A stretch of 64,000 nucleotides of DNA. Source: a virus (Duplodnaviria > Heunggongvirae > Uroviricota > Caudoviricetes). Positions 12,223 through 64,000 of this stretch are shown piece by piece. The notes beneath the pieces are model-generated. The model worked only from the letters and a program-made list of their open reading frames with translations. It did no database searches and had not been told where the DNA came from. The translations under genes were made by a program, and so were the position numbers. Positions within the stretch are counted from its first letter, which is position 1, and every line of letters starts with the position of its first letter. The stretch lies in IMG/VR virus record IMGVR_UViG_3300020451_002055; one strand, given 5' to 3'.

Positions 12223-12224
12223 GA

Positions 12225-14906: not shown

Positions 14907-15345
14907 CGAATGCTCGGATGGCGCATTGACCTCCTTGGGCAGGAATAACAAAATCGGCCTCGTCCTGAACTTCTCGGATAGCATTCCAGGGACAAGCTGA
15001 GAATCCGGCCTTTTTGATGGCCGCCAGATCATTCTCTGCGTCTCCGATGAATCCAACCTCGTCCCAAGTATATTCGTCGCCTATGATCTCTTCTATGGCC
15101 TCTACCTTGTTCTGAACATCAGAAACGCATTCGAGATTTACAGAAGCAGCCTTGACATCCACAGCGCCGTCGTTCGCCCCTGTTAGGATGATGACTCGGA
15201 TGCCAAGCGAGCGAAGCCTATGTATGGCGTGAAAGTCCGCTGTATTGAACACCTTTGTCACTGAGCCGTCCGATGAAACAAAGTAGTTACCATCAGTGAG
15301 CGTCCCATCGCAGTCTATGAACAGAATCTTGAAATCAACCTTCAT
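14842..15345 (-). CDS. KdsC/KDN-9-P-phosphatase-like HAD phosphatase
   Basis: IDCDGTLTDG, ILTG, K, FIGDAENDL, GGQCAIR. Confidence 0.9.
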   Translation of the reverse strand: MKVDFKILFIDCDGTLTDGNYFVSSDGSVTKVFNTADFHAIHRLRSLGIRVIILTGANDGAVDVKAASVNLECVSDVQNKVEAIEEIIGDEYTWDEVGFIGDAENDLAAIKKAGFSACPWNAIREVQDEADFVIPAQGGQCAIRAFAKQVVAEMGHDWLTENETGER

Positions 15346-15347
15346 TG

Positions 15348-16921: not shown

Positions 16922-16922
16922 A

Positions 16923-17669
16923 TCATTTGAGCCTATCTGCGTATTTGTCCAAAACATCTTCAAGAGCCATCTTGGGAAAACTCTTAAGTAAACCTTCTGT
17001 AGCGGTATCAATGATCTCTACTTTGCCCTTATTGGTAGCTGCGAACTCCCTCCAATATTCATGGAAGTCAATGCAGTGATGATCGACGGGCTTGTCTTCT
17101 ATTCGTCCGCGGTTTGGAGTAGAAAAGAATCGAGTGCCTATTTTGATAGGAGCCTTCTCTCCAGGGAACTGCCAGAAGTATCTTTTGCGTCCTACATAGC
17201 AACAATCGCAACCCATCAGAACAATAGGATCGCACCCCATGATGTATGCGAGATGAACAGCCGTGCCCATCGAAGTCCTAGCTCCGACTATAGGCTTGCT
17301 AGCCTCTCTCGTAAGCTCTAGACCTTCCGGGTATTTCTTCTTCTTGCTCGGATCATACCAAGTCTTATGAGAGAAGAACGCAACATCTTCTTCGCGAAAA
17401 TGAGAGACCGCATCTGCTAGCTTTGTCTTGAACAGAAGCTTCTTGCATTTGCTGTCTCTCGCTGTTTGTAGGTAGTAACTCCATTCTCTGACGCCTTGGT
17501 CATCAGAGACAAAGTAATCGCAGTCCGGCATCTTGACAATACCAGAGTTGACAGTGATCGTTACATACTTAGAGAGCGGAGTTACATCGACGCCGTGCAG
17601 AGACGGACCTGCTCCGATCAAGAACGCAGCGCTACCCTTGTGCTTGTTCTCTATTTCGCTGAGTTCCAT
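16923..17669 (-). CDS. MAF/DUF115 (MptE-like) domain protein, putative nonulosonate transferase
   Basis: LIGAGPSL, TVNSG, DYFVSDD, GARTS..AVHLAYIMGCDPIVLMGCD. Confidence 0.78.
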   Translation of the reverse strand: MELSEIENKHKGSAAFLIGAGPSLHGVDVTPLSKYVTITVNSGIVKMPDCDYFVSDDQGVREWSYYLQTARDSKCKKLLFKTKLADAVSHFREEDVAFFSHKTWYDPSKKKKYPEGLELTREASKPIVGARTSMGTAVHLAYIMGCDPIVLMGCDCCYVGRKRYFWQFPGEKAPIKIGTRFFSTPNRGRIEDKPVDHHCIDFHEYWREFAATNKGKVEIIDTATEGLLKSFPKMALEDVLDKYADRLK

Positions 17670-18396
17670 ACCTTTGCAGCACCTCCGGTAGGCTCATTCT
17701 TGGAAACGCATCGATAAGCGAGTCAGTAGATGCATTGATAATCTCTACGCCTTTATTAGCATCGGCAACCGCTCTCCAATACTCCAAGAAATCCCTGCAA
17801 TGTTGATCAACCGGACTGCCGTTGATATGGCCTGAGTTCGCTTTGGCAAAAACTTTCCGGTAAGGAGTATCAGAAACTACCTTCTTCCAACCAGGGAACT
17901 GCCAGAAGTATCTCTTGCCCTGAACATACTTTGCATCGCATCCAAGAAGAACAATCGGATTGCAACCCATGATCTTAGCAAAATGGACAGCAGGACCGGC
18001 TGAGGTTCTTGCTCCAATGATTTCGCTCTCGATGGACATATCGAGACCTCTGTCAGTAGCATTCTCATCGTAATGGGGATCATGCGGAGACTGACAATGA
18101 TAAAAGCACTTTTCATCGTCAGGAATAGGTTCAGATACATCGTCCATTCGTAGAGCTTGAAAGAGCTTGATGGAATCGCCCTTTAAGACTTCCTCTTGCC
18201 AGTAGTCCCATTCAGCGCAGACCGGATCGCCTGTCAAAAAGAACTCAGCATCAGGAACGGCTCTGATACCAGAGTTGACAGCAATACGAGTATGGCCTTT
18301 GAGCAGATCAAGGTCTTGGAAATGCAACGACGGACCTGCCCCTACGACAAATCCGATCGTGCCTGTCCTTGAATCTTTGAGGTCAGAGATCAGCAA
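17632..18396 (-). CDS. MAF/DUF115 domain protein, paralog
   Basis: VVGAGPSL, AVNSG, GARTSAGPAVHFAKIMGCNPIVLLGCD; TTG 18396 chosen by alignment with the paralog. Confidence 0.78.
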   Translation of the reverse strand: MLISDLKDSRTGTIGFVVGAGPSLHFQDLDLLKGHTRIAVNSGIRAVPDAEFFLTGDPVCAEWDYWQEEVLKGDSIKLFQALRMDDVSEPIPDDEKCFYHCQSPHDPHYDENATDRGLDMSIESEIIGARTSAGPAVHFAKIMGCNPIVLLGCDAKYVQGKRYFWQFPGWKKVVSDTPYRKVFAKANSGHINGSPVDQHCRDFLEYWRAVADANKGVEIINASTDSLIDAFPRMSLPEVLQRYGTQRNREQAQG

Positions 18397-19333
18397 AACA
18401 ATCCATGCTCCCTCTTCCAACTATCCGGCCATTCATAGAGCCATACATTGTTTTCATGACATCTGAAGCGTCGTAGTTGGTAATGATGAGTTCCTGACCG
18501 TCATCCTTGACTTCCTTGCCGGTTCCGCTGTATTTCCATGTCTCAGAATAAAGATGGAACCCATCGTCTTCTCGGAAAAGTTCTCTAACAAGCTTATGAT
18601 CATCGTAGCTGATACAGACCTTGTGGTCGCTTGCAAGAACAGCATCCCTGAACTTCTCATGATCTTCCATGCTGAATCCAAGCTGATATAGCTGACTGTT
18701 GCGAGCAAGCTCAGAGTTGACGACATAAGGCGGGTCGAGGTAGACAACAACATCATCGCCTGGCTCAGAAAGCGTTACCTCATAGGAATCGCAAGTTATG
18801 CGAGTGTCCTTAAGGTGAGCGGCAACCTTCTCTAGCAGGTCTGTTTTGATGATGTTCCAACCTTGAGGGTTGGAGAAGTAAAGACGAGAGCGCTGAGCAG
18901 GATCATACGTCACTCTTCCGCCCCAAATGGTACGGTTGAGATAGAAGTACCGCAACGCAGCATCCATGTTTTCGTCGTCAACAAACTTATCGAAGACGGC
19001 TTTGAGACGGGCGTTGTATTCCTTCGATCCTTCTTTTGATGTCTCTTTGGACTTGACCGTTGGCTCGCCTTCCTTGGCGGGCTCAATCTCTCTGCATGAA
19101 GCAATGAACTCATCCGGCCTATCTCGCAGAGCCTTGTAGACAGCTATAAGCGGATCGTTTAGGTCATTGATCCATCTCTTCTCAACTCGATCTGTTGGGA
19201 TTGCGAAGAAAATGCCTCCGCCGCCGACAAAGCCTTCTCGATATTCGCCGAATCTGGCGGGCATGCGTCGAAGGATCTTTTCTTGGACATGCTTTCGCGT
19301 CTTGCCGCCAGGATATCTAAAGGGTGATCTCAT
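18383..19333 (-). CDS. dam: Dam/D12-class DNA adenine methyltransferase
   Basis: SPFRYPGGK, EGFVGGG, INDLN, YLDPPY, ELIITNY. Confidence 0.9.
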   Translation of the reverse strand: MRSPFRYPGGKTRKHVQEKILRRMPARFGEYREGFVGGGGIFFAIPTDRVEKRWINDLNDPLIAVYKALRDRPDEFIASCREIEPAKEGEPTVKSKETSKEGSKEYNARLKAVFDKFVDDENMDAALRYFYLNRTIWGGRVTYDPAQRSRLYFSNPQGWNIIKTDLLEKVAAHLKDTRITCDSYEVTLSEPGDDVVVYLDPPYVVNSELARNSQLYQLGFSMEDHEKFRDAVLASDHKVCISYDDHKLVRELFREDDGFHLYSETWKYSGTGKEVKDDGQELIITNYDASDVMKTMYGSMNGRIVGRGSMDCFADL

Positions 19334-20025
19334 TCAACTGCCCTACGAATCATCTCTCGGAAGTTCTCTATGCTATCGTCTGAAGGGTTGGGGTCTGTCA
19401 TAGAGAACCACGGTAGATCGAAAATGCGGTCTGACTCTTCGATGTCGTAGTAGTATTTTGTCTGACCGCCAGGATTTGTGTAGCTTCCAAGCTTCGGGTA
19501 GTTGTTCATAGATATTCTTGGCCCAACATCTTCAAGATCAGCAGACACAAAGAGGTTGATGCGCTCGCAGTCATATGTAGTTCCGATCATGGGGACTCCG
19601 ACATGCTTTTTATCTATCATGCCGTTATGAGAGTCCATGTTCATCCTAAATCTCTTATTATGCTCCGTGCTTCTTCCTGAGTTGGTAACTCTTGGAACAG
19701 CTTTCATGTCGAAGACTACAGTCTGAGTCTGCCCATTGACCTCAAAATCAACTAGCAAATCTCCTTTGTCTCTGAATGAGCCGCTTTTATCAACCTTGGG
19801 ACTTACAAGCAACTTGTGACCGAGTATCTTGTAAGGAGAATACTTCTCTAAAACTTCCATAAACCTGTCAGCCGCATAGCTTTCAGTATGGAAGCTCTTC
19901 ACCATGTCATTTCCAAAATCTTCGTCAGTTCGATAATCCCTTCGTCTATCATAGGACATATCTAGCTCCGGATTGTATCCATCCTGAGCCCAATATACTT
20001 CATCCAGATTCAATTCGTCTATCAT
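19330..20025 (-). CDS. Hypothetical protein, possible PD-(D/E)XK nuclease
   Basis: E...GDLL...FDMK spacing; coupled to the MTase. Confidence 0.4.
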   Translation of the reverse strand: MIDELNLDEVYWAQDGYNPELDMSYDRRRDYRTDEDFGNDMVKSFHTESYAADRFMEVLEKYSPYKILGHKLLVSPKVDKSGSFRDKGDLLVDFEVNGQTQTVVFDMKAVPRVTNSGRSTEHNKRFRMNMDSHNGMIDKKHVGVPMIGTTYDCERINLFVSADLEDVGPRISMNNYPKLGSYTNPGGQTKYYYDIEESDRIFDLPWFSMTDPNPSDDSIENFREMIRRAVE

Positions 20026-51058: not shown

Positions 51059-52277
51059 TAGGGTGCCTTCTCGGATGATCAAGATTGATGTTATAGGAGT
51101 ATGTAATACCCCTCTCATCATGAATACCGAAAAGCTTCTGTTCAGCCCTTGTGCCAGGTAGATTATTCTTCAAAGAGTATACATCAGAACCAACGAACGA
51201 ACCGTTCATTACGACCCTACCGCTATGCGATGTATACTCGCCCGCATTATGGAAGTGACCGCAGACCGCGTAGTGAAGCTTCTTGCCCATTGTGGCCTGC
51301 ATCTTGTTCTTGACTTCAAGCAATCCTTGGATAGGAGTGTTCTTACTCTTAACATCATCTCCATGGCAAAGCAAGAAGTTATGGTTTTGAATATCGACGA
51401 TCTCAAACCAAGACATAGGTATATCGAATGTTATTCTTGGATTGTTACGAAACTCGGTTTCTAGCATTCGATAAATAACAATGTCCCAGTTACAGAAGTC
51501 CTTTTCAACTCCGCTTGGGGCAACCCTGCCATGATTACCCCGAATGCCATAGAAATGAATCTTCTCAAAGATTGTCAACCAGTACCAGATAGCGTCAGAC
51601 AGTGCTTGAACGCCATACATAACCTGGTCGTAAATGTTTGTTGAGATGTAAACCGGAGACCATTTGCCTGCGGCATTCATGCCATCAACGATGTCTCCGA
51701 GGCAAAAAATATGCATCTCAGGAATGGCGTACATATGCGAATGCAGTTCATAGATATCGGCAACAGCGTACTGCATGTTCTGCATTCTTTGGCGGAAAAT
51801 GTCAACGTTGTATTCTGACAATCCTCCGGTCTCTTGCTTGGAATGCTCATGGCCGATATGGAGATCGCTCAAAACGACCCCCATATGCTCAGGAGTTCCT
51901 TCTTTCTGAGATCTTGGAGCCCACTTGCTAAGCTTAGCTTCTGGTCGTTTTTCTATTGCTCTGCAGAGCTTGTCCGCAATGAGGTCGGTTCGAGAGCGAT
52001 GGACTGCGAGACGATTGTCTGCAACAACCTTGTTGTATTCTTCAAAGGTTTCCGTCTTGCGCTTCTTGATTCGCTCCTGAACCTTGTCCGGAATATCCGT
52101 GTCTTCCCAGTTCGTATTGCGATACTTGTCCCAGCATGCTTGTTCAGTTCGCCCAAGAATCTCTGCAATCTGCTTATAAGGAGTGCCCAAGACTCGATGC
52201 TCCCAAAGCGTCGTTGTGTCTTCGATGCTCCAAGGTCCGGTCTTTATCTCTCTACTCTGCTCGTTCGATCTACTCAA
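51018..52277 (-). CDS. HTH/Myb-like domain fused to calcineurin-like metallophosphoesterase
   Basis: WSIED...YKQIAEILGRTEQAC; SDLHIG, LGDIVDG, GNHGR, HGD, GHFH. Confidence 0.85.
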   Translation of the reverse strand: MSRSNEQSREIKTGPWSIEDTTTLWEHRVLGTPYKQIAEILGRTEQACWDKYRNTNWEDTDIPDKVQERIKKRKTETFEEYNKVVADNRLAVHRSRTDLIADKLCRAIEKRPEAKLSKWAPRSQKEGTPEHMGVVLSDLHIGHEHSKQETGGLSEYNVDIFRQRMQNMQYAVADIYELHSHMYAIPEMHIFCLGDIVDGMNAAGKWSPVYISTNIYDQVMYGVQALSDAIWYWLTIFEKIHFYGIRGNHGRVAPSGVEKDFCNWDIVIYRMLETEFRNNPRITFDIPMSWFEIVDIQNHNFLLCHGDDVKSKNTPIQGLLEVKNKMQATMGKKLHYAVCGHFHNAGEYTSHSGRVVMNGSFVGSDVYSLKNNLPGTRAEQKLFGIHDERGITYSYNINLDHPRRHPNDPTTSMGESVSE

Positions 52278-53029
52278 AGCTGCGCTCCTTGTTCTACAGC
52301 GGCATGATATTCATCTCGGAATCGACGCCATACCTGCATGTGAGCGTCAATCATTTCGCTTTTGTGTTTCTGCGTCATTCCATCAGGATTTTTTCGGTAG
52401 TAGATAAGCATCTCTGGAATGTTCGCCATCTGCTTACCTTCAATCAATGCTCTGGCCCAAAGGTCCATATCGGGAACCGTGTAGATACTCTTGTCGAGCG
52501 TATAACCGCCAAGCTCATCAAAGTCTGCTTTGCGGAACATAGTTGTCGGATCGATCATGGGGTTCTGCTTCAAGCGAAGCAAACTCATAACAATCTGCCT
52601 CTGACGTATAGGAGGGTAAGACATAATCCCTGTCTGTTCACTGTCATGATCGATAGAAATCGCATGCCCGCCTACGCAGAACACGTTTTCATGAACATCG
52701 AGATAGCGAACTTGAGTCTCAAACCGATGCGGAAGACTGATATCATCGCCATCATGAATGGCGATATACTCGCCTCTTGCAAGGGCTATAGCCTCATTTC
52801 TCCGCGTAGGTATCTTCTTATTCTCTCTGCTATCTACAAGATCAACCCTCTCATCGCCGCCGACGATATCGCTAACGATCCTCCATGTAGAATCTGTTGA
52901 TCCATCATTGAGCAAAACCCATTGAAAGTCCGTATAACTCTGATCAAGAACAGACCGCAATGATTCCTCAATGAAGCGTTCGCAGTTGTATACTGTCGTG
53001 ATTACTGTCAACTTAGGCTTGGAAGACAT
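52274..53029 (-). CDS. GT2-family glycosyltransferase
   Basis: TVYNCERFI, NDGSTD, ARGEYIAIHDGDD. Confidence 0.92.
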   Translation of the reverse strand: MSSKPKLTVITTVYNCERFIEESLRSVLDQSYTDFQWVLLNDGSTDSTWRIVSDIVGGDERVDLVDSRENKKIPTRRNEAIALARGEYIAIHDGDDISLPHRFETQVRYLDVHENVFCVGGHAISIDHDSEQTGIMSYPPIRQRQIVMSLLRLKQNPMIDPTTMFRKADFDELGGYTLDKSIYTVPDMDLWARALIEGKQMANIPEMLIYYRKNPDGMTQKHKSEMIDAHMQVWRRFRDEYHAAVEQGAQL

Positions 53030-54128
53030 CTCGGTATTGCTCCTTGATCTTTGACCAGTCGTAATCTCTGAGCATAAGCTCCTTGCCGTCTCTGCTCAAC
53101 TGATTTCTTAGATCATTGTCTGTCAATATTGATGTAAGACCATCTGAAAAAGCCTTGTAAACAGGCGTCGAATATTGCAACTGACCTCGCTGCTTCTTAT
53201 CGCTTCTGCAAACAATGCCTCCGGCGAGAGAAGGCACGTTGCCGACATTCAATGAGACATAGGGCAGACCGGCAGCCATACACTCTAAGACAACGAGCGG
53301 CGCGACCTCGGTTTGCGAGGGAAACGCGAATACGTCTGCCTCAAAGAATGCCTGTATCGTTTCTTGCCGCGGAATATTCTTGAGCGAACTCGAAGAATAC
53401 TTAGCCTTGCGGCGCATCATATCATGCCTGCGTCTTAGGGCTTCTGCAGGAGCAAAGTTGACGTTCGTGGATATAAAACAAGCATGGATGTCGGGAACTT
53501 GAGAATTGACCTGCGTTAGAATATGATGCAAATGTTCTTGTCCCTTACCAGGAAAGAAGTTAGATACGCAAAGTATCAACTTCTTATCCTTGGGGATGTT
53601 ATGCATTTCTCTAAAGCTAAAACCCTGCGGCTTGAACTCATTGAGATCAACAGCATTTCGTATAACTTTGACGGGTATATCCATGGATTCGCATGTTGTA
53701 TAATCCAAGTAGTCATCAGAATGAGTTATGACCTGGAAATGCTCATGATTTCGCTGAAACAAAGCAAAAGTATCGCCATGAGCCCGCATATGGTTCATGC
53801 CGACAAGGGCTATGCTCTTTTTGCCAGGTATAGTTTCTGGATGCCTAACCAGAGCAGGCCACATCAAAAACGAGTCGCTGTAAACAAAGGTATGATCGGG
53901 CTTTAACTCTCGTAACTGCTCCATGAAAAGACGCTCGGTCTTCATGTGAGGCATAATGCGGACGCCGTTCTTGACTGTTTCTCGATCAGCCCATTTTGCA
54001 AGAACAATGCATTCCATACCGTAGTCTTGGGTCATAGATTCAGTGACCTGTTGAACTACTTTCTCAGAACCGCCTACATGAAAAGGGGCAGCATGATTGA
54101 CGCATACTACGAGTCGTTTAGGTTTCAT
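53013..54128 (-). CDS. GT4-family glycosyltransferase
   Basis: GGSE, IRNAVD, GKGQ, ADVFAFPS.TEVAPLVVLECMAAGLP. Confidence 0.9.
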   Translation of the reverse strand: MKPKRLVVCVNHAAPFHVGGSEKVVQQVTESMTQDYGMECIVLAKWADRETVKNGVRIMPHMKTERLFMEQLRELKPDHTFVYSDSFLMWPALVRHPETIPGKKSIALVGMNHMRAHGDTFALFQRNHEHFQVITHSDDYLDYTTCESMDIPVKVIRNAVDLNEFKPQGFSFREMHNIPKDKKLILCVSNFFPGKGQEHLHHILTQVNSQVPDIHACFISTNVNFAPAEALRRRHDMMRRKAKYSSSSLKNIPRQETIQAFFEADVFAFPSQTEVAPLVVLECMAAGLPYVSLNVGNVPSLAGGIVCRSDKKQRGQLQYSTPVYKAFSDGLTSILTDNDLRNQLSRDGKELMLRDYDWSKIKEQYRDVFQA

Positions 54129-54877
54129 GTCTTCAAAGCCTCAACAAGGTCTTGACGCTGAGGACGAAACTTTCTCTTTGCCCATTTGGTGCAAAACTCA
54201 GAGTAGCTGTTCTTGAAAATCTCCATCTTCTTAGAGTTCTTACCAAGAGTCTGGTGAGGCAGATGAACAATCCTAGCTTTGTAGTTCCACGCAAGTCTGC
54301 CCTCATCATCCATGATGCGAAAACAGAAGTCGGGATCCTCAAAGTAAGCCGGATTGAATCGCTCATCGAACATACCAAGACGCTCAGGCAATTCCCCTCG
54401 CATAAGCATGCCTCCGCAACCCACATATGTCCAAGGATCGTTCGGTCGCTTTGCTTGCTGCACAGGATAGAATCGACTGTTCATGAGCCAAGCTTCGACG
54501 CCAACAACCCTTGCCCTGGTCCCCTTGAGTACAGAGTGGTGTTGCTCTAGCCAGCCCTCTTGGACATATTGATCGTTATCCAAGAACATGAGATATTCAG
54601 GCTTATCGCTTAGGTTCTTATATAGGTCAAATCCGTAGTTTCTGCCGCCGATGACACCCATGTTCGTAACGCTCGCAGAATAGACCATATTGGCCCGCTT
54701 TCCGGCTTCTTCTGCCAGATATTCGGCAGAGCCGTCATCTGAACCGTTATCAATCATGATTAGCAGCAGATTGTCTTGATCCGTGTTTGCATCGAGATGC
54801 TGCATGAAACGCTTCGTCGTTTCAATGCCGTTGTGAGACAAGACAACTAGGGCTGTTCGGATATCGCCTGTTCCCAT
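54125..54877 (-). CDS. GT2-family glycosyltransferase
   Basis: IDNGSDD, GGRN.G, FLDND, FDERF...YFEDPDFC. Confidence 0.9.
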   Translation of the reverse strand: MGTGDIRTALVVLSHNGIETTKRFMQHLDANTDQDNLLLIMIDNGSDDGSAEYLAEEAGKRANMVYSASVTNMGVIGGRNYGFDLYKNLSDKPEYLMFLDNDQYVQEGWLEQHHSVLKGTRARVVGVEAWLMNSRFYPVQQAKRPNDPWTYVGCGGMLMRGELPERLGMFDERFNPAYFEDPDFCFRIMDDEGRLAWNYKARIVHLPHQTLGKNSKKMEIFKNSYSEFCTKWAKRKFRPQRQDLVEALKT

Positions 54878-54901: not shown

Positions 54902-57900
54902 TTATGTATCTTGGATTGTCACGGTATTACTGCGAACAGTAACGCCAACCGATATGCCATCGAACGGAACGACCTCAGCATACCATTGGTCTCCTGCAGC
55001 CGTGTTTGTTGCAAGGATAAAGCCTTCGTTTGCCAGGCTAGCTACTTCTGAGAAGTCCTCTTCGCCGCTTCTCTTGCGATACCAGCGGATCGAGCTTTCA
55101 TCTTGCTGACTCTGCGAGCCCTGTGCAATGTCGTTATCGAAGAAGGTATAGTTCAGATCCAGGCCGGAATCAACCGCCGGGCTCTCTGGCGTTATGATAA
55201 CGCTTGATACGATCGGAGGCGCGTTCTCGACAGTGACCGGAGCAGAGCGGACAGGATCGCTAATTAGGTTACCAGATGCCGGTCGAACTTCGACTTCAAG
55301 AACATTGCCAATGATCATTGCAACAACTGCTCCGGAGATTTCGCCCGGTACGATCTCGTTATTGCTCAGCCCGTTGACAGACTCATTGAGAATGCCTCGC
55401 TTGAACTCGACGCCGTTGACATACCAAATGATCGTAGACTCGTTCTCTCCTCCATCATCGAAGAAGTTGAAGTCCGCGATAGCAGTAGTCGATGTAGTTA
55501 CCGTATCTTGGAGCCCGCCGGTTTGCGTTCTACCCCGGATAGATATCTCTGTAATGAATGGCGGGGCAGCTACGATCTCAACAGACGGAGAACGAATGAC
55601 TTCGCCAAAGTTGAGACCATCGCTCGGTCGAACGGTGAAGTATACAATGTCGCCTACAGAAACAAGGCTTTCTTCCCGCTCTCTAGCAAACTCTTCAATG
55701 CTTGTTCCGTCAGGCACATCTTCCGGCGTAAAGCTAAAGCCAAAGGACCAGATAGGGTCAAGGAAGTTGTTAATGTTGTTCCATTCTCTTAGATCGCGAA
55801 GGAACTCAGCTTCAACGCCGTTGATGTACCATCTGATCTGAGTCTGCTCAGTATCTTCCTCGTCTCCATTGAGATCAAAGAATCGATAGGTTGCAGAGAT
55901 AGTAGTATATGTTGCCGGAGCAGAAGGCACAACCCTAGGCTCTTGAGCTTCAGGCGGACGCTCCGAAAGCGGAGGCGGCAAGAATACATTGGTATTCCAC
56001 ATGTAGCCAACGCCTCGGATATTGATATCCTCGCTCGCAAAGCGATTGATAACTTGAATGCCGATTCTGAACTGGTCAGAATTCTCAATATCGATATTGA
56101 ATGGGCCGGTTCTCTTTCTCTTGAAGACGATCAAACCCTGTCTCGGGTATGCTCTGTATTCTGTTGCCTCGATGACATTATCAAGGGAATCTCGAACCGT
56201 AATCTGCGATGTCAAATCCCAAGCCCCGTAGGTAGTCTTCCATACAAAGCCATCGATATTGATCAGAGACTCTTTGAGAACTGCCTCTTCCTGATCCGTT
56301 CGAATAGGAATGAAGAGCTTTCCGTATTGATCTACTGCGGGCCTTGCTCCGGTTCTGAAATCTTCCCAAGAAGAAGAGTTACTTGTTGCGACTCCAACAA
56401 GAACTTCGCTCTCGGGCGGATCATTTGCATCGACCGCAACTGCGATCTGCTGAGCCCCAAAGAGGGAGCTATCTGCATTGAGATACAAGAAACTGATCTT
56501 GGGGAGGCTGTACCTGATGTTGATACCAGTCAATGCTGGCACGCCCGGCGTTGCCAGGTTCTCATATGCCTCCAAAATAGAAGCAGACAATCCGGAAAGC
56601 AGAGACACTCTAAACTTGAAGAAACGACCAGTCAGTCTAAAGAAGTCAACTTCGCTATTTGGACTGAACTGATCTGATGGTTCAGAAAAGTTGAAGCCAT
56701 CATCCGAAGCGGAAACCGTCCAGTTGCCATCAGTGTTCTCGAACAGAGTATAATCGAGAACGATTGAGTTGACAACGCTGATCTGACCGAGATCAATAAC
56801 AAGCTCGTAAGCACCGAAGCCGACAGAACCAGCGGCTCGACCGATCATGTTATTGAGTATTTCATTGAGGAAGTTAGCATCAAGAACCGTTTGCGATTGG
56901 CCTCCGGTTTCAGAAGCAATAACCTCAAGGTCATCCGTATCGGTTCTAGCCAGCAAAGCTGAAAGCGTTACGGGGAAAACGACTGAGAAGTTATTGACTA
57001 GAACCGGAACCTCAGCAAATCCATCGATAGCCTGAACATTCTCAAGAGCAGTCTCTAGGCCTATGAAGGATAGGCTCTCTTCATTGTCAGTCTGAACATA
57101 GATGACCTTTGAAGCAGTATCGAGAGCTTCATCAAGCATAACTTCAGCGATAGCGCCAAGGCCGTCATAGAACGGCGATGCTCCAAAGGGGACGGCGTTG
57201 CGAAGGCGCTCTACGATTTCCAAAGCCTCTTCAGCGGTTCCATCATTCGTATTGATGTAAGGAATAACCTGAGGAACCCATTCTATGTCGCTGAAATACT
57301 GAACAGACGGACTCTCTAGCTGCGGAGTCTGCGGAGGGTTAAGGTCAAAGACAGGATTATCTCTATCCGCCAGGTCATCGCCAATAGGCGTTCCGCCTGC
57401 ATTGTCGTCAACATCTGGGCCATCGTCATCGCCGTTGCCATCTGGATCTGGCGGTTCAGGAAGCTCTTGAGTTACAGTATACGAACGACATCCTTCAAAC
57501 TGAGGCGAATACGGATCTGTAGGAGGCGGGTCCAGAACATCCGGCTGACCGTCGTCGTCGGTATCATCATTCGTATCATCTGAATCATCGTCATCCCCGG
57601 TGTCTTGGAACTGGTCAGGATCTTCGTTGTCATCAAAATCGACAACCGTCTGACCATAATAGAAGTCATCGATAACGGTAAGCTGAATACGGATGACGTA
57701 TGGATTGCGAACGTCGCCCTCATTGATAATAAGCGGCTCAGTTTCATCTGCAGAATCGGTATCCTCTTGTTGTCGAGCAAGCTCAAGCTTCCTGCGAATC
57801 TCATCTACCTTGTCAAGAATGTCTTCTGATCTTGGTAGCAACGTAGTAGAAGCAAGACCATTGACAGCAATGATATCGTTGCTTGAGAAAACAACAGGAT

Positions 57901-60900
57901 AAATAAGAGCCGCACGACTTACATTGTCAGAGGCGGTCTGCTGGTCGTCATCGCTTCCGCCGCCACCACCCTGTAGATCATCTGCGTCGTCATCTTCCTC
58001 GCTATCCGGAAGCAATACGAAGCCTCGAACAAGAATTCGTATATCATCAGTCGGCCTCTCGCCAACATCATCAATGAGTTCGATATCTACGCCCGCCGAT
58101 TGCTTGCCATCAAGCCGTATGCGATCTGGCGTTACTTCTGCATTGATCTGCAAAAAGCCAGCAGGGCGACCGCTCGTAATGCCTCCGGCCACATAGACGT
58201 AGCGGAAGTCATCAGAAGTCATACCAAAAGCCTGCCTCGGGATTTCGACTCCTGCAAGCTCAGTAAACGTAAACGGATCAGGCGATACCGAAGGATCAAC
58301 AGATTCAAAAGTCCTTGAAACGCTTGCCTTTCTTGTCGCTCCTCCCAAGAAGTATGGGGTATCTTGGACGACTGCAGTTCCACCCTTGTATCGAGGCTGC
58401 GGAATATCTGCATAGTCCTGCTCGTCTCGCTCGATAGTCAACGTGTCAAGATCAATCTTGTAGGTATCAGTCAGGAAAATGATTTCCTGGCTCTGCCCTT
58501 CTCCGATTGGAACAGCGCCGCCTGAGACTCTAATGGTATTATCTGCTTCATTGTAGAATGCGAAAGGAGCAATACGCTCATAGAGAACCTCATCTTCGCC
58601 AGTAAACTGATCGGAGACGCTCCATTCATCAAGATCTATATCATAGATGACTACTCGGTCGTTTAGCTCCTGTATTCCGCCTTGGGATCCTACAAGCCTG
58701 ATGCCTCCAACAAAGTAGACCTTGCTGTCAACCTTGATAGCAGTCCCCATGGCAACGCCATACGAAAGGAAGTCATTGTCATCAAGAGTTGGCATCGATG
58801 TGATCGGCAGCCATGTATCGATAAGCGGATCATATACCTCGCAAAGTTGAGTTACGACAATACTGTTATCAACAACCGCGAAACCGCCAAAGACATAAAC
58901 TTTGCCCGCGTCCTCGATGGCATGGTGGTAGAACCTTGGCGTGGTCATTGGGGCCATGTCGGTCCATGTTTGCGAATCGATGCGATACTGCTCGTTGTAG
59001 AACGATACCGTATTGCCATCTAGACCGCCGATTGCATACAGGACTTCGCCGTAAGCGTCAAAGGTCCAAGTAAGAGTTAGAGCCCCTCTTGGATGGTTGA
59101 GATCATTTGGGAGGGATTCCCATTCATCAGTGACCGTATCATAGATATCGATCGTGCCGCTGTAGAGGTTGTTGATTACTGCTTCCTGATCGTCCTCATC
59201 CTCATCATCTGGCTGTTCGTCTTCAACCTCGTAGCGGATAGTTACGCATGCGGTCATGCTCCGCTCAGCATCTCCTCGCTTGTCGTAGTTTACCTCTGCT
59301 TGTATCTGAGCCTCAAACTCTTGAATTGGGCTCATTGGGAGAAGAGAGAAAGAGGCATAAGACCTTTCCTCTGATCCATCAATCAACGGATCAACAATAG
59401 TCTCTGTGAATACAACCTGCTGAGGCACTTGAATCTTAGTCGGATTGTTGCCGCCAACCGTTATGCGAATTGGAGTTCCGTTGGGAACAGGGCGTCCGGC
59501 AAACGATACTCTAACAACAAAGGTATGAGACGACTGACCATCAACCAAAAGCTCATTGACAGGCTCATTATCTCTTCGCACTTGAACAATGCGAATATCA
59601 AGCGGTTCTTTAAGCCTAACAATGCATGGCGGGATGCCGTTTTCTGCATCGCCGCCGCCAGAAAGGTATCTAATCTCTCCGTCGAGTTCGGTCTCAGTAC
59701 GACCGAAGATGATGTTGTCTCCTTGTTCCTCTCGGTAAGTAAAGTCAATGGCTGCGCATCGATTCTCAACCGGATCATTATCATCTCCTCCGCTAGATTG
59801 CGGAGGCGGGCCTATGAAGGTATTGATGCGAAGAAAAGCCTCTGTTGTCTGCTCTTCTTCAAGAGGTATAACCGCAAACCCTAATTCTTCCTCGTTATTC
59901 GAGAACGTGGGCTCATCGATGTAGGGATCAAAACCTATCTCAAGATCAGGTCCGTAGAGTATTTCGAAGTTATTACCTGTCTCTACCTCGACCGGCTGAC
60001 CGGTGTTGAGAATGAACAACGTTCCATTAAAGTCGTCTGCGCAAGAACGGAAAATTTGACCAAATAGTCCGCCTGCCTGGTTGGGGTCTTTCCATATGGT
60101 TAGTTTCTCGTAATCATATCCGTCTGCCCACATTTCGACTTGATATTGCCGTAGGTGCATAAGGAATCGAGAACCAAAACCGCCCTGAGTCTGCTGCGGA
60201 TAAATGAAGGCTGGTTTCTCATCGAATGCAGAAAGACCATCGTAAACGATGTCAGTCCTAATAGCATATAGCTCGGGAAGCAACTGCGGGCCAAACTGCC
60301 CTTCAAAGATATACCATGTAACACCGCAAGCCGGTCCAAAGAAGACTCTGCGTGCCTGTCCATTGATGACTCTAGAGAACACGCCGGGACCGGTTTGAAC
60401 GGCATTATCGGTAGAATAGAACGGCCTATCTTTTCCGGATACGCCCTTTCTTAGTCTCCATTTGACAATCTCGTTATCAGGTATTCTCTCTCTGCGGTCC
60501 GGGTTATCTGGATCAATCAGATATGCAGCGGCAAACTGCTCTGCAATATCAACGCAGTCAGGAGCCGGAACGCTTTCTGTCAACTCGATGCGAAGAATGT
60601 TCTCGAAAGCGATATAGAGCTTGCGGCGACCGAAGAAGCCGTTGTAGCTCGCCTTGGCAAAGAACATGACGCCCTGCGGGAAATCAGGAACTTGGAGCGG
60701 TATATCAGCATAGCTGAACTGAGTAATGACGCCTTCGTTGTCCTCTTCCTCTCCCAACAAAAGATCAACAGTTGTAGAGGGAGGAAGAACTGTCCTGCTC
60801 TTGCGATCAGAGAAGGATGGTTCAAATGGCTGCGGCGGATCAGAGTCATTGTCATCGCAATCAGGATCAGAAGCCTCATGCACAGCAACAAAGACCTTAC

Positions 60901-63900
60901 CGCCATCAGTAATGGCTTCGTCTCTATAGGTTACTCGAACCCTTGCAACAAAAGGCTCTTGCCTTCTAATGTATGTTCCATCAAAGTCTTTGGTCTGATC
61001 ACTAACAAGAAGACCGCCGGTGCTTTGCGTAAGAACATCATTGAGATCAACTGTTGCCTTGCAGACGTGTTCAACTCTATCTCCACGGAGATTGATCAGT
61101 TGCATACCGAACGGGTTGTCAAGCTTTATACTGATCGGTCGAGAGTTGAACTCAAAGATATTCGATGACGGGTTCTCCCTATCCGGTATTTCGAAAGATA
61201 CAAAAACGCTGAAGTTGATAGAGTTCAAAGCAGAAAGGATATCAAAGTCATCTGACATGCGCAAGATGCCTCGGATAACGCCGTTGCCTTGAGGAGTGGT
61301 AGTAAGTATGTGCGCCTCTTCGAAAGAGGGCGTAGTAGTATCTCTGTTGACTTGCTCGCCGAATACGTCTTCGCTGTTTCCCGAACCAGAGACGCTGCCG
61401 CTAGTCGTGAATTTCAGGTTTGACTCATCAGCGACAGGGGCTCCGAACTCATCGGTAATCTGAGCGAATAGAGCAACTCGCTGATCAAACCAGCCCTCAA
61501 GCGACTTCTGGAATATGACAGGCTGTTCCCAGGCTAAGCTGATCGCATCGTCAGTAACGACTTCATATCGAAGCTTGCGGACCTCAAGAAGCGGAATGCC
61601 AGTTTCATCAGCGTCTTCTAGAGGAGTCTCGCTTGTATAGGTTTCGGTTGAAACGTAGCCATACTTGTCTGTTGTTACAAATGCATAGAAGGCTTCTTGA
61701 TTATTAGGGATGTTCCTGTGAACAAAGCTAGTCTGGCTTGGATTGCCTCGGAAGATAAGCTCTGAATCTGAGTTTCCCTGCTCATCGATAATAGGGAATC
61801 GGTTGTCCGAGTAGAATATCTTGACTTCGCGAGCAGCATCAGTTAGCCCCGGAATCGACCACTGGAAGTATATCTTCCTATTGCCTACTTGAGTGGTTAT
61901 GTTCTGAATAGTTGGAAGAGCAGGAGGACCGCCGACTACTCTGTCGCGTTGCTCGTCGCTCTCAAACTCTGGTATTGTTACCGAAAGAACAGGAGAATCG
62001 CTCCATAGCGAATAGTTGCCTATGGCATTCTGGGAGAATATCTTGTAATGATACTCTCTGCCATGTATGAAGTCTTTAGATACTGTGAAGAAGAAGTTGC
62101 CCGGAGAGGCTTCTGATTCGTAGATAACAGTTCCGTCATTCTCATGGTACGGTATGTCGCCAAAACCGATATCAACTAGTTCAAAATCACCTGAATCTGG
62201 ATCATCTATTCTATCTTGAAGTCTTGGACCGGCTTCTTCCTTTTCAACAACTCTGACGTTACCATCAACATAGTTGTAATCTGCAGGAACCGTATAGTTG
62301 AATGCAAGTATGCGATCGCCGTTGTCTAGCTCTTTTTGCTCGTTATCGCCCGGAAGAGTTGCTGCTTCTTGTATGTAGAGAATATCTCTCTCAACGCTAT
62401 GGACAGATACTTCTGTTATCTTGCCAAAGAACGTAGAGGAGCCATCCAAAGCTCCTATCTCAAAGGAGTTAATGAGAGAGGCCACCGCGCTACCGCTAGG
62501 CAAAGAACCTTGAGCAGCGATCGCTCCATTCACATAGATGATTGCATTATTAGTATCCGGATTCCAGGTTACAGCAACATGGTTCCATTCATTCTCAATA
62601 AGAGGAGAAGATGACGTAGTAACACCTGTAGCAGCCCTATTCCAAATCTGCAAGTCTTTGCCTGCTCTGATAAGGAAAAAGCCAAAGCCCTCAATAAATG
62701 AGCCGGTCGGTCCTTTTTCTCCAAATACAAACTGAGCAACAGGATTGGCTTGCTCAAATGGCAGAATCCATGCCATAAAAGTAAAACCGCTACCCGCCCC
62801 CATAAGAGATGTGGAAGGGGTGTCTCTTAGGTGTCTCCAATACTGATCGATGCCATTGAGCCGGACGCCTGATCTTCCGATAGGCGTATCTTCCTCATTC
62901 AACCATCTTGGTTCTTCTTGATTGATGGCAGATAGATGGTACTGGTTCGGAGTAAAATCAAAGGCCTCTAAACCTGCTGCCTCGTTGAAATGCCAAAGCG
63001 CTGTTACGTCATCATCTAGACGGATGCCAGAGCCTCGAAGGATCGTAGCGTTAAAGGTTCCAATACCGTTGGGAAGGATTCGAGGGCGAGGTATAGCTGA
63101 TATCTGCTTGCCTTCGCTGAATGTTCCGAACTGATCATAGGTGTAGACTGTGTAGAAGTAGTCTTCGCCCTCTTCAAGATTATCGTCGAAAGCTCTGTCT
63201 AGGAAGCCTTCGGTAACAATGTCTCCGTCTACGGCATTGTTCGAGAACAGTGCTTCCTTGCGAAGAACCCGAACGCCTGCATATCCGCTTTCTTGGTCCG
63301 CGAAAAAGGCATCAGCAATAGCTCCGCCATCGCCGGTGTCCACTTGGTCATCCTCAATGACGGCAAAGAAGTTGACGCGAATCGGAGTTGATTCGAATGA
63401 GAATAGATTGAAGCTAACTTGGCCCGGATAGGTGGCATCGAGCCTAGTAATGAGGCGACGAAGAATCTCGTGGCGAGTCTTGGGCTCGTCGTTCCATGTC
63501 ATTGAACCAGACTGATCAACAAGCAGCGAAACAATTCGATCAGGCAACCGAAGAGAAACCTCATTGGTAACTCCGTCATCGTTTTGAATCTCTGTATTCA
63601 AAAAGACCGGGTTGGTGTCCGGATCATCAAACTTGTTGGTACGATCTATAAAGGCCTCTGCGGGCGGAGTCTGAATGACGCAGCCGGTCTCGTCAAGAGC
63701 ATCGACAAAGAACCACATAGTAAGAGCGAACCGGAGATCAGATGCCTCCCATCCTGCTCCGTCTTCATTGGTAAAGGACTGAAGAGCTATATAGGGGTCT
63801 ACATCAGAACTCGCCAAATCCCATACGATATATGAATCATCGTCGCTTCCGACCGGATATAGAGAGAATGAGAAGTTATTGTCGTAATCTACCGTTGATC

Positions 63901-63985
63901 CGGCAAACTTCTGCATATCAAAGTTGTATTGATCGTCCAGTTGTAGTTCGGAATAGGTAGATTTAGCGTCATAGAATGGACCCAA
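54902..63985 (-). CDS. Giant acidic multidomain protein (VWA halves, FN3/Ig-like, LamG, Kelch propeller, C-terminal Ig repeats); probable virion/adhesion protein, likely 5'-truncated by the window
   Basis: DQSGSM; ALWHFNE...FTFMAWI...WNHVAVTW...IYVNG; repeated YAIGG/YVFGG/YFVGG/YFLGG/YVAGG; frame stays open to base 64000. Confidence 0.8.
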   Translation of the reverse strand: MGPFYDAKSTYSELQLDDQYNFDMQKFAGSTVDYDNNFSFSLYPVGSDDDSYIVWDLASSDVDPYIALQSFTNEDGAGWEASDLRFALTMWFFVDALDETGCVIQTPPAEAFIDRTNKFDDPDTNPVFLNTEIQNDDGVTNEVSLRLPDRIVSLLVDQSGSMTWNDEPKTRHEILRRLITRLDATYPGQVSFNLFSFESTPIRVNFFAVIEDDQVDTGDGGAIADAFFADQESGYAGVRVLRKEALFSNNAVDGDIVTEGFLDRAFDDNLEEGEDYFYTVYTYDQFGTFSEGKQISAIPRPRILPNGIGTFNATILRGSGIRLDDDVTALWHFNEAAGLEAFDFTPNQYHLSAINQEEPRWLNEEDTPIGRSGVRLNGIDQYWRHLRDTPSTSLMGAGSGFTFMAWILPFEQANPVAQFVFGEKGPTGSFIEGFGFFLIRAGKDLQIWNRAATGVTTSSSPLIENEWNHVAVTWNPDTNNAIIYVNGAIAAQGSLPSGSAVASLINSFEIGALDGSSTFFGKITEVSVHSVERDILYIQEAATLPGDNEQKELDNGDRILAFNYTVPADYNYVDGNVRVVEKEEAGPRLQDRIDDPDSGDFELVDIGFGDIPYHENDGTVIYESEASPGNFFFTVSKDFIHGREYHYKIFSQNAIGNYSLWSDSPVLSVTIPEFESDEQRDRVVGGPPALPTIQNITTQVGNRKIYFQWSIPGLTDAAREVKIFYSDNRFPIIDEQGNSDSELIFRGNPSQTSFVHRNIPNNQEAFYAFVTTDKYGYVSTETYTSETPLEDADETGIPLLEVRKLRYEVVTDDAISLAWEQPVIFQKSLEGWFDQRVALFAQITDEFGAPVADESNLKFTTSGSVSGSGNSEDVFGEQVNRDTTTPSFEEAHILTTTPQGNGVIRGILRMSDDFDILSALNSINFSVFVSFEIPDRENPSSNIFEFNSRPISIKLDNPFGMQLINLRGDRVEHVCKATVDLNDVLTQSTGGLLVSDQTKDFDGTYIRRQEPFVARVRVTYRDEAITDGGKVFVAVHEASDPDCDDNDSDPPQPFEPSFSDRKSRTVLPPSTTVDLLLGEEEDNEGVITQFSYADIPLQVPDFPQGVMFFAKASYNGFFGRRKLYIAFENILRIELTESVPAPDCVDIAEQFAAAYLIDPDNPDRRERIPDNEIVKWRLRKGVSGKDRPFYSTDNAVQTGPGVFSRVINGQARRVFFGPACGVTWYIFEGQFGPQLLPELYAIRTDIVYDGLSAFDEKPAFIYPQQTQGGFGSRFLMHLRQYQVEMWADGYDYEKLTIWKDPNQAGGLFGQIFRSCADDFNGTLFILNTGQPVEVETGNNFEILYGPDLEIGFDPYIDEPTFSNNEEELGFAVIPLEEEQTTEAFLRINTFIGPPPQSSGGDDNDPVENRCAAIDFTYREEQGDNIIFGRTETELDGEIRYLSGGGDAENGIPPCIVRLKEPLDIRIVQVRRDNEPVNELLVDGQSSHTFVVRVSFAGRPVPNGTPIRITVGGNNPTKIQVPQQVVFTETIVDPLIDGSEERSYASFSLLPMSPIQEFEAQIQAEVNYDKRGDAERSMTACVTIRYEVEDEQPDDEDEDDQEAVINNLYSGTIDIYDTVTDEWESLPNDLNHPRGALTLTWTFDAYGEVLYAIGGLDGNTVSFYNEQYRIDSQTWTDMAPMTTPRFYHHAIEDAGKVYVFGGFAVVDNSIVVTQLCEVYDPLIDTWLPITSMPTLDDNDFLSYGVAMGTAIKVDSKVYFVGGIRLVGSQGGIQELNDRVVIYDIDLDEWSVSDQFTGEDEVLYERIAPFAFYNEADNTIRVSGGAVPIGEGQSQEIIFLTDTYKIDLDTLTIERDEQDYADIPQPRYKGGTAVVQDTPYFLGGATRKASVSRTFESVDPSVSPDPFTFTELAGVEIPRQAFGMTSDDFRYVYVAGGITSGRPAGFLQINAEVTPDRIRLDGKQSAGVDIELIDDVGERPTDDIRILVRGFVLLPDSEEDDDADDLQGGGGGSDDDQQTASDNVSRAALIYPVVFSSNDIIAVNGLASTTLLPRSEDILDKVDEIRRKLELARQQEDTDSADETEPLIINEGDVRNPYVIRIQLTVIDDFYYGQTVVDFDDNEDPDQFQDTGDDDDSDDTNDDTDDDGQPDVLDPPPTDPYSPQFEGCRSYTVTQELPEPPDPDGNGDDDGPDVDDNAGGTPIGDDLADRDNPVFDLNPPQTPQLESPSVQYFSDIEWVPQVIPYINTNDGTAEEALEIVERLRNAVPFGASPFYDGLGAIAEVMLDEALDTASKVIYVQTDNEESLSFIGLETALENVQAIDGFAEVPVLVNNFSVVFPVTLSALLARTDTDDLEVIASETGGQSQTVLDANFLNEILNNMIGRAAGSVGFGAYELVIDLGQISVVNSIVLDYTLFENTDGNWTVSASDDGFNFSEPSDQFSPNSEVDFFRLTGRFFKFRVSLLSGLSASILEAYENLATPGVPALTGINIRYSLPKISFLYLNADSSLFGAQQIAVAVDANDPPESEVLVGVATSNSSSWEDFRTGARPAVDQYGKLFIPIRTDQEEAVLKESLINIDGFVWKTTYGAWDLTSQITVRDSLDNVIEATEYRAYPRQGLIVFKRKRTGPFNIDIENSDQFRIGIQVINRFASEDINIRGVGYMWNTNVFLPPPLSERPPEAQEPRVVPSAPATYTTISATYRFFDLNGDEEDTEQTQIRWYINGVEAEFLRDLREWNNINNFLDPIWSFGFSFTPEDVPDGTSIEEFAREREESLVSVGDIVYFTVRPSDGLNFGEVIRSPSVEIVAAPPFITEISIRGRTQTGGLQDTVTTSTTAIADFNFFDDGGENESTIIWYVNGVEFKRGILNESVNGLSNNEIVPGEISGAVVAMIIGNVLEVEVRPASGNLISDPVRSAPVTVENAPPIVSSVIITPESPAVDSGLDLNYTFFDNDIAQGSQSQQDESSIRWYRKRSGEEDFSEVASLANEGFILATNTAAGDQWYAEVVPFDGISVGVTVRSNTVTIQDT
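54905..55950 (-). repeat. Three protein-level Ig-like repeats at the C-terminus of the giant ORF
   Basis: [YF]xFFD...[RI]WY...G[DN].....V.P..G occurs three times. Confidence 0.65.
58170..59170 (-). repeat. Kelch repeat region (about 6 blades)
   Basis: GG...Y...W...M..PR periodicity. Confidence 0.8.
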
Positions 63986-64000
63986 TCCTCCCGGTCCGCT

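What the first reader, a model, noticed from the sequence alone, without database searches (positions are those of the whole stretch)
56845..63540. One VWA domain apparently split by a ~2000-residue insertion
Seen: near 63540-63380 lies only the first part of a VWA (IVSLLVDQSGSM...helix...FNLFSF). Near 57280-56845 lies only the remainder (AEEALEIVERL...GASPFYDGL...KVIYVQTDNE...VPVLV...LEVIASETGGQ). Together they give one complete MIDAS (DxSxS...S...D). Between them are FN3/Ig-like, LamG and Kelch modules and Asp-rich linkers. Inference: the chain loops out and back so that the VWA closes a giant hairpin arm, or halves from different subunits complement in trans to polymerise a fibre or lattice.
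Basis: partly seen in the sequence, partly recalled or inferred. Interest (0 to 1): 0.75.

Follow-up and report, generated by a model that had tools for sequence, protein, structure and literature searches.

The report
Phage vWA domain split by giant insert
A giant (~3,200-residue) protein of an uncultured huge phage encodes one small metal-binding adhesion (vWA) domain in two pieces about 2,000 residues apart, and related phages put the pieces on two separate proteins, so the domain most likely forms only when distant or separate chain segments snap together.

Summary
The minus-strand ORF 54902-64000 (3,032 aa here, 5' end cut by the window; homologs ~3,226 aa) has a first vWA piece at residues 148-222 (DQSGSMTWND; betaA-alpha1-betaB) and a second at 2222-2392 (GAS, TDNE, TGGQS; three strands, five helices).

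Neither piece is a whole vWA:
- Pfam matches only profile positions 3-51 of 107 in piece 1, and an FN3 domain follows directly.
- The AlphaFold model of piece 2 aligns to solved vWA domains only from about domain residue 46 to the end (Z 10-12).

Both piece profiles tile one contiguous bacterial vWA that carries the same DQSGSMSWND signature. A concatenated profile aligns to it in one path (97.5%, E 5e-12). All MIDAS residues are conserved in 121-122 of 122 distinct homologs. The gap is never below ~1,450 aa.

Two clades cut the gene in two, at different domain borders, and each keeps one piece per gene.

Physical docking of the pieces, cis versus trans, and function (probably a clasp and adhesin of a virion fibre) are inferred.

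This scan has found the same family before on other DNA. I found no paper describing it. I rate it a new variant of a known kind, of moderately high interest.

The parts
54902..64000 (-). Giant ORF: 3,032 aa within the window, N-terminal ~194 aa beyond the window end. Homologs are ~3,226 aa.
63335..63559 (-). vWA piece 1 (residues 148-222): betaA, MIDAS loop DQSGSMTWND (63488-63517), alpha1, betaB and a low-confidence further strand.
   Evidence: Pfam VWA_2 positions 3-51/107, E 5e-5. AF2. hhalign against a contiguous vWA: 97.2%, E 4e-11. D162, S164, S166, W169 and D171 invariant.
63080..63307 (-). FN3-like domain that starts the insert (residues ~232-307).
   Evidence: AF2 plus VIA-align, Z 6-7.3 to FN3 domains
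62393..62818 (-). Laminin_G_3 / ConA-like lectin domain (residues 395-536).
   Evidence: Pfam E 1.1e-15
59585..59608 (-). EPL|DIRIV, residues 1465-1472: the border where clade A relatives end gene 1 and start gene 2. It is continuous in the window.
   Evidence: E1465, P1466 and L1467 invariant
58136..59173 (-). Kelch beta-propeller (residues ~1610-1955).
   Evidence: Pfam Kelch families, E 1e-15 to 1e-16; PDB profile hits
58097..58135 (-). Border after the propeller and before RLDGKQS, where clade B relatives split the gene. It is continuous in the window.
57356..57673 (-). Asp-rich low-complexity linkers (residues 2110-2167 and 2185-2215) just before piece 2. A further one lies at 57914-58015.
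   Evidence: disordered in AF2
56825..57337 (-). vWA piece 2 (residues 2222-2392): possible betaC, alpha2, MIDAS Ser2275 (57176-57178), alpha3, betaD with MIDAS Asp2305 (57086-57088), alpha4, betaE, alpha5, betaF, alpha6.
   Evidence: AF2. Foldseek probability up to 1.00 to vWA domains and integrin beta subunits. VIA-align Z 10-11.8. PDB profile hits are all vWA, E ~0.05. hhalign E 3.4e-4. G2273, S2275 and D2305 invariant.
56501..56836 (-). Jelly-roll, CBM32/discoidin-like domain directly after piece 2 (residues ~2389-2500).
   Evidence: VIA-align Z 8.6-8.8 to 3ggl and 4a42; PF00754 precomputed on homolog P0023
54905..56500 (-). C-terminal beta-rich domains, including three ~100-aa repeats (YxFxDxxGDxE...W) from residue ~2700.
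   Evidence: sequence; AF2 strands
52274..54877 (-). Three glycosyltransferase genes immediately downstream. This is conserved context, not part of the protein.

Best explanation
The giant protein holds a single vWA/MIDAS domain whose chain is interrupted after betaB/betaC by a conserved insert of ~2,000 residues. The insert consists of FN3, LamG, further beta domains, a Kelch propeller, Ig-like domains and Asp-rich linkers.

Piece 1 supplies the central strand betaA with the DxSxS loop, alpha1 and betaB. Piece 2 supplies alpha2 to alpha6, strands betaD, betaE and betaF, and the MIDAS Ser and Asp.

Inferred: the two pieces dock side by side (betaA next to betaD) into one six-stranded Rossmann-like domain with a complete metal site. 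In the one-gene form this closes the insert into a loop. In the two-gene forms it joins two gene products. The long acidic linkers before piece 2 would give the slack for the chain to return.

The domain would then be both a structural clasp and a metal-dependent binding site. It sits in what looks like a lectin-rich (LamG, Kelch, CBM32-like) adhesin or fibre of a ~500-kb phage.

Shown: two pieces, each incomplete; tiling of one contiguous vWA; invariance of the MIDAS residues; constant co-occurrence and order; two gene fissions.

Inferred: physical docking, metal binding, cis closure, and a role as virion adhesin.
For: - Pfam matches only the first half of VWA_2 in piece 1. In two related complete phage genomes the giant protein also matches only positions 2-52, whereas other vWA proteins of the same phages match 2-107.
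- AF2 of piece 1 gives betaA-alpha1-betaB, then FN3.
- AF2 of piece 2 gives only three strands plus five helices. It aligns to solved vWA domains from about domain residue 46 to the end, Z 10-11.8.
- Pfam PF00092 hits the C piece of two distant members at profile positions 64-137 and 78-167 of 174.
- A contiguous vWA in a Lachnospiraceae MAG protein (Pfam E 3e-17) is matched by the piece-1 profile at residues 45-81 (97.2%, E 4e-11). The piece-2 profile matches it at residues 111-201 (E 3.4e-4). The concatenated profile matches in one colinear path (97.5%, E 5e-12, 157 columns).
- MIDAS residues D, S, S, G, S and D are kept in 121-122 of 122 distinct paired sequences at down to ~25-30% identity.
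- Every protein with both pieces has piece 1 upstream, and the gap is 1,450-2,900 aa.
- Two gene-fission classes have clean stops and new ATG starts at two different domain borders. Piece 1 is always in gene 1 and piece 2 in gene 2. The two classes form separate clans on a tree.
Against: - No direct test of docking was possible. Folding the fused or paired pieces is barred by the tools' sequence rules, and no natural relative has a gap under 1,200 aa.
- Each piece alone falls below Pfam's curated cut-off (24.3 against 27 bits). Single-sequence and PDB profile E-values for piece 2 are weak.
- The AF2 models have only moderate confidence (mean pLDDT 66-70).
- A covariation analysis between the pieces was uninformative.
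- A first piece would have to wait exposed while ~2,000 residues are translated, which is unusual.
- Virion location and ligand are unknown. No PHROG or Pfam family assigns a function, and no GenBank phage has a homolog.
Confidence: 0.7

Rival explanations
1. Trans complementation between copies. Piece 1 of one molecule docks with piece 2 of another (a domain swap), giving dimers, rings or head-to-tail polymers that build a fibre or lattice.
For: Two-gene relatives show that the pieces can sit on different chains. An exposed half-domain during the long translation of the insert would favour intermolecular pairing. Modular FN3, Ig and Kelch arrays are typical of fibrous assemblies.
Against: Nothing here separates trans from cis. 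In two-gene forms a 1:1 heterodimer explains the data equally well. The long flexible acidic linkers just before piece 2 make intramolecular return easy. No oligomerisation signal was found.
Confidence: 0.17
2. The pieces do not assemble. Each is a repurposed remnant of a vWA that packs on neighbouring domains: piece 1 on the N-terminal domain or FN3, piece 2 on the CBM32-like jelly roll. The motif conservation would then serve separate roles.
For: AF2 folds piece 2 as a fairly compact alpha/beta unit without piece 1. Each piece is sub-threshold for Pfam. Three-stranded flavodoxin-like half-domains do exist.
Against: The Ser and Asp of piece 2 and the DxSxS of piece 1 are all invariant at exactly the MIDAS positions in 122 sequences. 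They cannot form a metal site separately. The pieces always co-occur in the same order, even after two independent gene fissions. Together they tile a contiguous vWA without overlap. The last strand of piece 1 and the first ~25 residues of piece 2 are disordered in isolation, as expected for interface segments.
Confidence: 0.1
3. Artefact: a chimeric assembly or a chance pairing of motifs in a long low-complexity ORF.
For: The window comes from an uncultured source. DxSxS alone is a common motif.
Against: More than 240 cluster representatives and more than 60 independent contigs from many samples show the same architecture. Profile and fold statistics are far beyond chance.
Confidence: 0.01

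Closest known systems
Canonical MIDAS-type vWA / integrin alpha I domains (Pfam PF00092, PF13519; e.g. alphaM I domain 1jlm/1na5, CD11b 8ce6, ITIH1 6fpy, TFIIH p44 5of4, Catenulispora vWA 4fx5)
   Same: Same fold elements and the same MIDAS motif set (DxSxS ... S/T ... D). Piece 2 superposes on these domains at Z 10-11.8 over ~130 residues. Piece 1 matches the start of the Pfam profile.
   Different: Known vWA domains are contiguous, ~180-200 residues long, with loop insertions of tens of residues. Here ~2,000 residues of about a dozen or more folded domains sit inside the domain. The MIDAS Thr is Ser, and the TDG motif is TDNE.
Contiguous vWA with the DQSGSMSWND signature in a 2,853-aa ORF of an uncultured Lachnospiraceae MAG (locus L071, ORF residues ~666-850)
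   Same: It shares the family-specific SGSMxWND extension of the MIDAS loop. Both piece profiles, and the concatenated profile, match it in colinear order.
   Different: It is one uninterrupted domain in a bacterial giant protein, with no insert. Similarity to piece 2 is weak (E 3.4e-4). Common descent of the host proteins was not examined.
Gram-positive pilus-tip adhesins RrgA / PitA / SpaC and the integrin beta subunit headpiece (nested domain insertions that involve a vWA-type domain)
   Same: They combine a vWA/MIDAS adhesive domain with nested domain topology. They appear among the fold hits (7w6b, 6m48, 3v4p).
   Different: From my own knowledge: in these proteins the vWA carries short inserted arms (tens of residues) or is itself the inserted domain. 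None has a multi-domain kilo-residue insert inside the vWA or a vWA divided between two genes.
Naturally split proteins that reassemble from two gene products, and fragment complementation of Rossmann-like folds
   Same: In two clades the two vWA pieces lie on adjacent, separately translated genes. This is the logic of fragment complementation.
   Different: There are no intein motifs and no sign of covalent rejoining. The break lies in the insert, not in the vWA itself. Reassembly has not been demonstrated.

Membership tests
vWA domain (Pfam PF00092 / PF13519) | Sequence match to the family profile above the curated cut-off, over the whole domain | tested here: not met
   Piece 1 alone scores 24.3 bits against a cut-off of 27 and covers profile positions 3-51/107 only. 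The window's piece 2 has no Pfam hit. Distant members' piece 2 hits PF00092 positions 64-137 and 78-167 of 174 below the cut-off. No single contiguous stretch matches the whole profile.
vWA domain (Pfam PF00092 / PF13519) | The full set of fold elements (betaA-alpha1-betaB-betaC-alpha2-alpha3-betaD-alpha4-betaE-alpha5-betaF-alpha6) is present | tested here: met
   The elements are present once each, summed over the two pieces (AF2). Piece 2 aligns to solved vWA domains from ~residue 46 to the end at Z 10-11.8. The concatenated profile aligns to a contiguous vWA at 97.5%, E 5e-12.
vWA domain (Pfam PF00092 / PF13519) | MIDAS residues DxSxS, Thr/Ser and Asp | tested here: met
   D162, S164, S166, S2275 and D2305 are conserved in 121-122 of 122 distinct homologs.
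vWA domain (Pfam PF00092 / PF13519) | The elements form one compact domain that binds a divalent cation | not testable with these tools
Nested domain insertion (parent domain interrupted by inserted domains) | Parent-domain segments flank the insert and are each incomplete alone | tested here: met
Nested domain insertion (parent domain interrupted by inserted domains) | The insert's entry and exit points are adjacent in space | not testable with these tools
   No model of the whole chain can be made (limit 1,200 aa; smallest natural gap ~1,450 aa).
Split gene encoding one domain on two polypeptides | Two adjacent genes, each with its own stop or start, carry complementary pieces | tested here: not met
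   The window's gene is a single open frame. The feature is met in relatives: 8 loci split after the Kelch propeller and 6-7 loci split at the EPL| border.
Integrin beta I-like domain (MIDAS plus ADMIDAS) | A second metal site formed by acidic residues just after DxSxS (DxSxSMxDD) | not tested
   The invariant DQSGSMTWND (W169, N170, D171) resembles the integrin motif from memory only. Integrin beta chains are among the fold hits, but that match concerns piece 2.

The most novel reading that the evidence does not exclude
The split vWA is a natural snap-fastener whose metal site exists only after two distant or separate segments meet. Completion of the MIDAS would then serve as an assembly checkpoint or a ligand-gated latch for a giant phage fibre. 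It could alternatively be a domain-swap joint that polymerises copies into a lattice. The nearby Asp-rich linkers might act as built-in MIDAS ligands. It would also be among the largest multi-domain insertions known inside a small domain, and a natural case of fragment complementation that evolved twice.
Probability: 0.22. Interest if true: 0.8.

Novelty: new variant of a known kind. Interest (0 to 1): 0.66.

Why it matters
vWA/MIDAS domains are among the best-studied adhesion modules, and they are treated as contiguous units of ~200 residues. This family has more than 240 cluster representatives from huge phages. A ~2,000-residue multi-domain insert sits inside the domain, and twice in evolution the two pieces ended up on separate genes.

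If the pieces do assemble, three things follow:
- It is an extreme natural example of nested insertion and fragment complementation.
- It gives a ready test system for how a half-domain survives long co-translational delays.
- It suggests a metal-dependent clasp that holds giant phage fibres together, which may be useful as a protein-engineering part.

It also warns annotators that domain scans will miss or mis-score such split domains.

Tried and rejected
- Single-sequence searches of each piece against PDB gave only noise.
- A whole-protein profile against PDB was swamped by Kelch hits.
- The apparent E 1.5e-10 match of the piece-2 profile to P0164 is inflated. That protein is 12 near-identical vWA repeats, and each repeat scores only ~4.6 bits. 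I use it for register only, not for significance.
- Mean-field DCA between the pieces (122 sequences, Meff ~107) was dominated by gap artefacts and gave nothing usable.
- I looked for natural relatives with a short insert that could be folded whole. None exists among 184 retrieved proteins (smallest gap ~1,450 aa), so the decisive single-chain fold was impossible.
The A3 alignment was too variable for a genome-contig scan.
- No homolog turned up in GenBank phages by megablast or tblastn.
- Literature searches found no description of this architecture.
- hhalign of the piece-2 profile against the phage's own canonical vWA protein (L041) was weak (E 0.044), although it was colinear with the piece-1 match.
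- The N-model fold search showed only the FN3 domain. The ~50-residue half-domain is too small to score on its own.
Full report
**What is there.** The finding lies in one open reading frame on the minus strand, 54902-64000. It is 3,032 aa long in the window, and its 5' end runs off the window. Homologs are ~3,226 aa, so about 194 N-terminal residues are missing here.

The window is phage DNA. It encodes a PHROG-type DNA polymerase, helicases and an exonuclease. Relatives of the giant gene sit on IMG/VR contigs of up to 548 kb, two of which are rated 98-100% complete. No GenBank phage carries a homolog.

**Piece 1.** Residues 148-222 (window 63335-63559) carry DQSGSMTWND.
- Pfam VWA_2 matches only profile positions 3-51 of 107 (E 5e-5 for the excised piece, 24.3 bits, below the 27-bit cut-off).
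- In two related complete phage genomes the same search gives positions 2-52 for the giant protein. Other vWA proteins of those phages match positions 2-107, which is an internal control.
- AF2 of residues 120-330 (29-sequence alignment, pLDDT 66) gives betaA, a short MIDAS-loop helix, alpha1 and betaB. A low-confidence stretch follows, then an FN3 domain from residue ~232 (Z 6-7.3 to FN3 structures).
- Only about 75 residues of vWA-like chain are therefore present here.

**Piece 2.** Residues 2222-2392 (window 56825-57337) carry PFGASPFYDG, KVIYVQTDNEE and ETGGQSQ.
- A single-sequence search finds nothing.
- A 29-sequence profile has only vWA domains as its six PDB hits (TRAP, RrgA-type adhesins; E ~0.05).
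- Pfam PF00092 hits this piece in two distant family members at profile positions 64-137 and 78-167 of 174.
- AF2 of residues 2196-2700 (pLDDT 70) gives two helices, then strand-helix three times: three strands in all. The 48 residues upstream are disordered.
- Foldseek puts vWA domains and integrin beta headpieces at probability 0.95-1.00.
- VIA-align aligns model residues 47-194 to TFIIH p44, a Catenulispora vWA, ITIH1, alphaM/CD11b I domains, ANTXR2 and others. Z is 10-11.8 and rmsd 2.4-3.0 A over ~130 residues.
- The match always starts about 46 residues into the solved domain (CD11b 46-184; alphaM 178-316). The missing first ~45 residues are exactly what piece 1 contains.
- A CBM32/discoidin-like jelly roll follows directly (Z 8.6-8.8).

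**Do the pieces belong to one domain?** Four lines of evidence say yes.

1. Tiling.
   - A scan of bacterial genomes with the piece-1 alignment found a contiguous vWA with the same DQSGSMSWND signature. It lies in a 2,853-aa ORF of a Lachnospiraceae MAG (Pfam PF00092 positions 1-166 of 174, E 3e-17).
   - The piece-1 profile matches its residues 45-81 (97.2%, E 4e-11).
   - The piece-2 profile matches residues 111-201 (E 3.4e-4).
   - A profile made by joining the two alignments, for comparison only, aligns in one colinear path over 157 columns (97.5%, E 5e-12).
2. MIDAS conservation. D162, S164, S166, G2273, S2275 and D2305 are invariant in a 37-protein full-length alignment. They are kept in 121-122 of 122 distinct paired sequences, at overall identities down to ~25-30%.
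3. Co-occurrence.
   - An exhaustive HMM search with piece 2 found 240 cluster representatives.
   - Every protein that holds both pieces has piece 1 upstream, and the gap is 1,450-2,900 aa, never shorter.
4. Gene fissions.
   - In eight loci, gene 1 stops right after the Kelch propeller, and gene 2 starts with its own ATG or GTG in another frame (M..EYK..KLDGKQS).
   - In six or seven other loci, gene 1 ends at ...EPLxx and gene 2 starts M(S)IWAQIGD. This corresponds to window residues 1467/1468.
   - Piece 1 always stays in gene 1 and piece 2 in gene 2, with the MIDAS residues intact.
   - On a tree of the joined pieces the two classes form separate clans (support 0.98 and 0.96). The second clan includes two single-chain proteins. 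The tree rests on only 246 columns, so it is indicative only.

**What is not shown.** I could not fold the two pieces together. Covariation between the pieces was uninformative. Docking, metal binding, cis versus trans assembly and function are therefore all inferences.

**Most likely mechanism (confidence ~0.7 that the pieces form one vWA).**
- Piece 1 contributes the central strand betaA with DxSxS, plus alpha1 and betaB.
- Piece 2 contributes the other half of the sheet, the remaining helices, and the Ser and Asp of the metal site.
- The two halves meet along betaA/betaD.
- In the one-gene form this closes a ~2,000-residue, multi-domain excursion. The Asp-rich linkers of ~30-60 residues just upstream of piece 2 provide slack for the return.
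- In two-gene forms the same interface ties the two products together.
- The surrounding LamG, Kelch and CBM32-like modules point to glycan binding.
- Three glycosyltransferase genes follow the giant gene in both the window and a 47%-identical relative. This is compatible with a decorated virion fibre or adhesin, but it is context only.

**Rivals.**
- Trans swapping between copies, giving oligomers or polymers (~0.17). The data cannot separate it from cis closure.
- Pieces that never meet (~0.1). This is disfavoured by the joint invariance of a metal site that neither piece can form alone.
- Artefact (~0.01).

**Comparison with what is known.** The parts are ordinary: a vWA/MIDAS domain, FN3, LamG, Kelch and CBM32. 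The arrangement is not.
- As far as I know, known vWA insertions are loops or arms of tens of residues (pilus adhesins, the integrin beta specificity loop), or the vWA is itself the inserted domain.
- Neither piece alone passes Pfam's cut-off. Strictly, the protein fails contiguous-domain membership, yet summed over the two pieces it meets the fold-element and MIDAS criteria.
- Literature searches found no description of this architecture.
- This scan has reported the same family from other genomes. Those notes agree with my reading but are not independent evidence. One of them pointed to contiguous Lachnospiraceae vWA relatives, which I re-found and tested myself.

**Verdict.** This is a new variant of a known kind, and I score interest at about 0.66.

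Noticed in passing
window 1-20000 (- strand), e.g. 15348-16214, 4756-5808, 2161-3114, 8174-10047: A run of tightly packed genes includes NeuB (nonulosonic/sialic acid synthase), an NAD-dependent epimerase/dehydratase, a D-2-hydroxyacid dehydrogenase and GT1 glycosyltransferases. This looks like a phage-borne glycan synthesis cluster.
   Followed up: partly
window 52274-54877 (-); L009 19421-21974: Three glycosyltransferase genes (GT2, GT1, GT2) follow the giant gene directly. The same order is kept in a relative with 47% identity. They may glycosylate the giant protein or the virion.
   Followed up: partly
window 63488-63517 (-), residues 162-171: The MIDAS loop is extended to an invariant DQSGSMTWND (W169, N170, D171). 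From memory this resembles the integrin beta DxSxSMxDD motif, whose acidic pair forms the ADMIDAS site, so a second metal site is possible. I did not test this.
   Followed up: no
L013 16013-16015; L065 8374-8379: Two relatives have an in-frame stop inside the gene. L013 has a TGA at a third position, near the DDxYYGQT segment. L065 has a TAA followed at once by ATG at the class A border. These could be read-through, sequencing error or fission in progress.
   Followed up: no
L071 7442-8284 (ORF 5585-14143): An uncultured Lachnospiraceae MAG encodes a 2,853-aa protein with a contiguous vWA that carries the phage family's DQSGSMSWND signature. It may be a relative of the ancestor of the split domain. 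The rest of that protein was not examined.
   Followed up: partly
L009 99-9437 (upstream of the giant gene): Three further large ORFs (1,059, 1,492 and 556 aa) precede the giant gene in the relative. They have no Pfam or PHROG assignment beyond a weak FN3 hit. Earlier first-stage notes call the corresponding region beyond this window's end 'virion proteins', which remains unverified.
   Followed up: partly
L070 8788-9300: A 289-kb contig binned as a deltaproteobacterial MAG ends in a strong piece-1 match (E 2e-19). It is probably a mis-binned or integrated member of the same phage group, cut off by the contig end.
   Followed up: no
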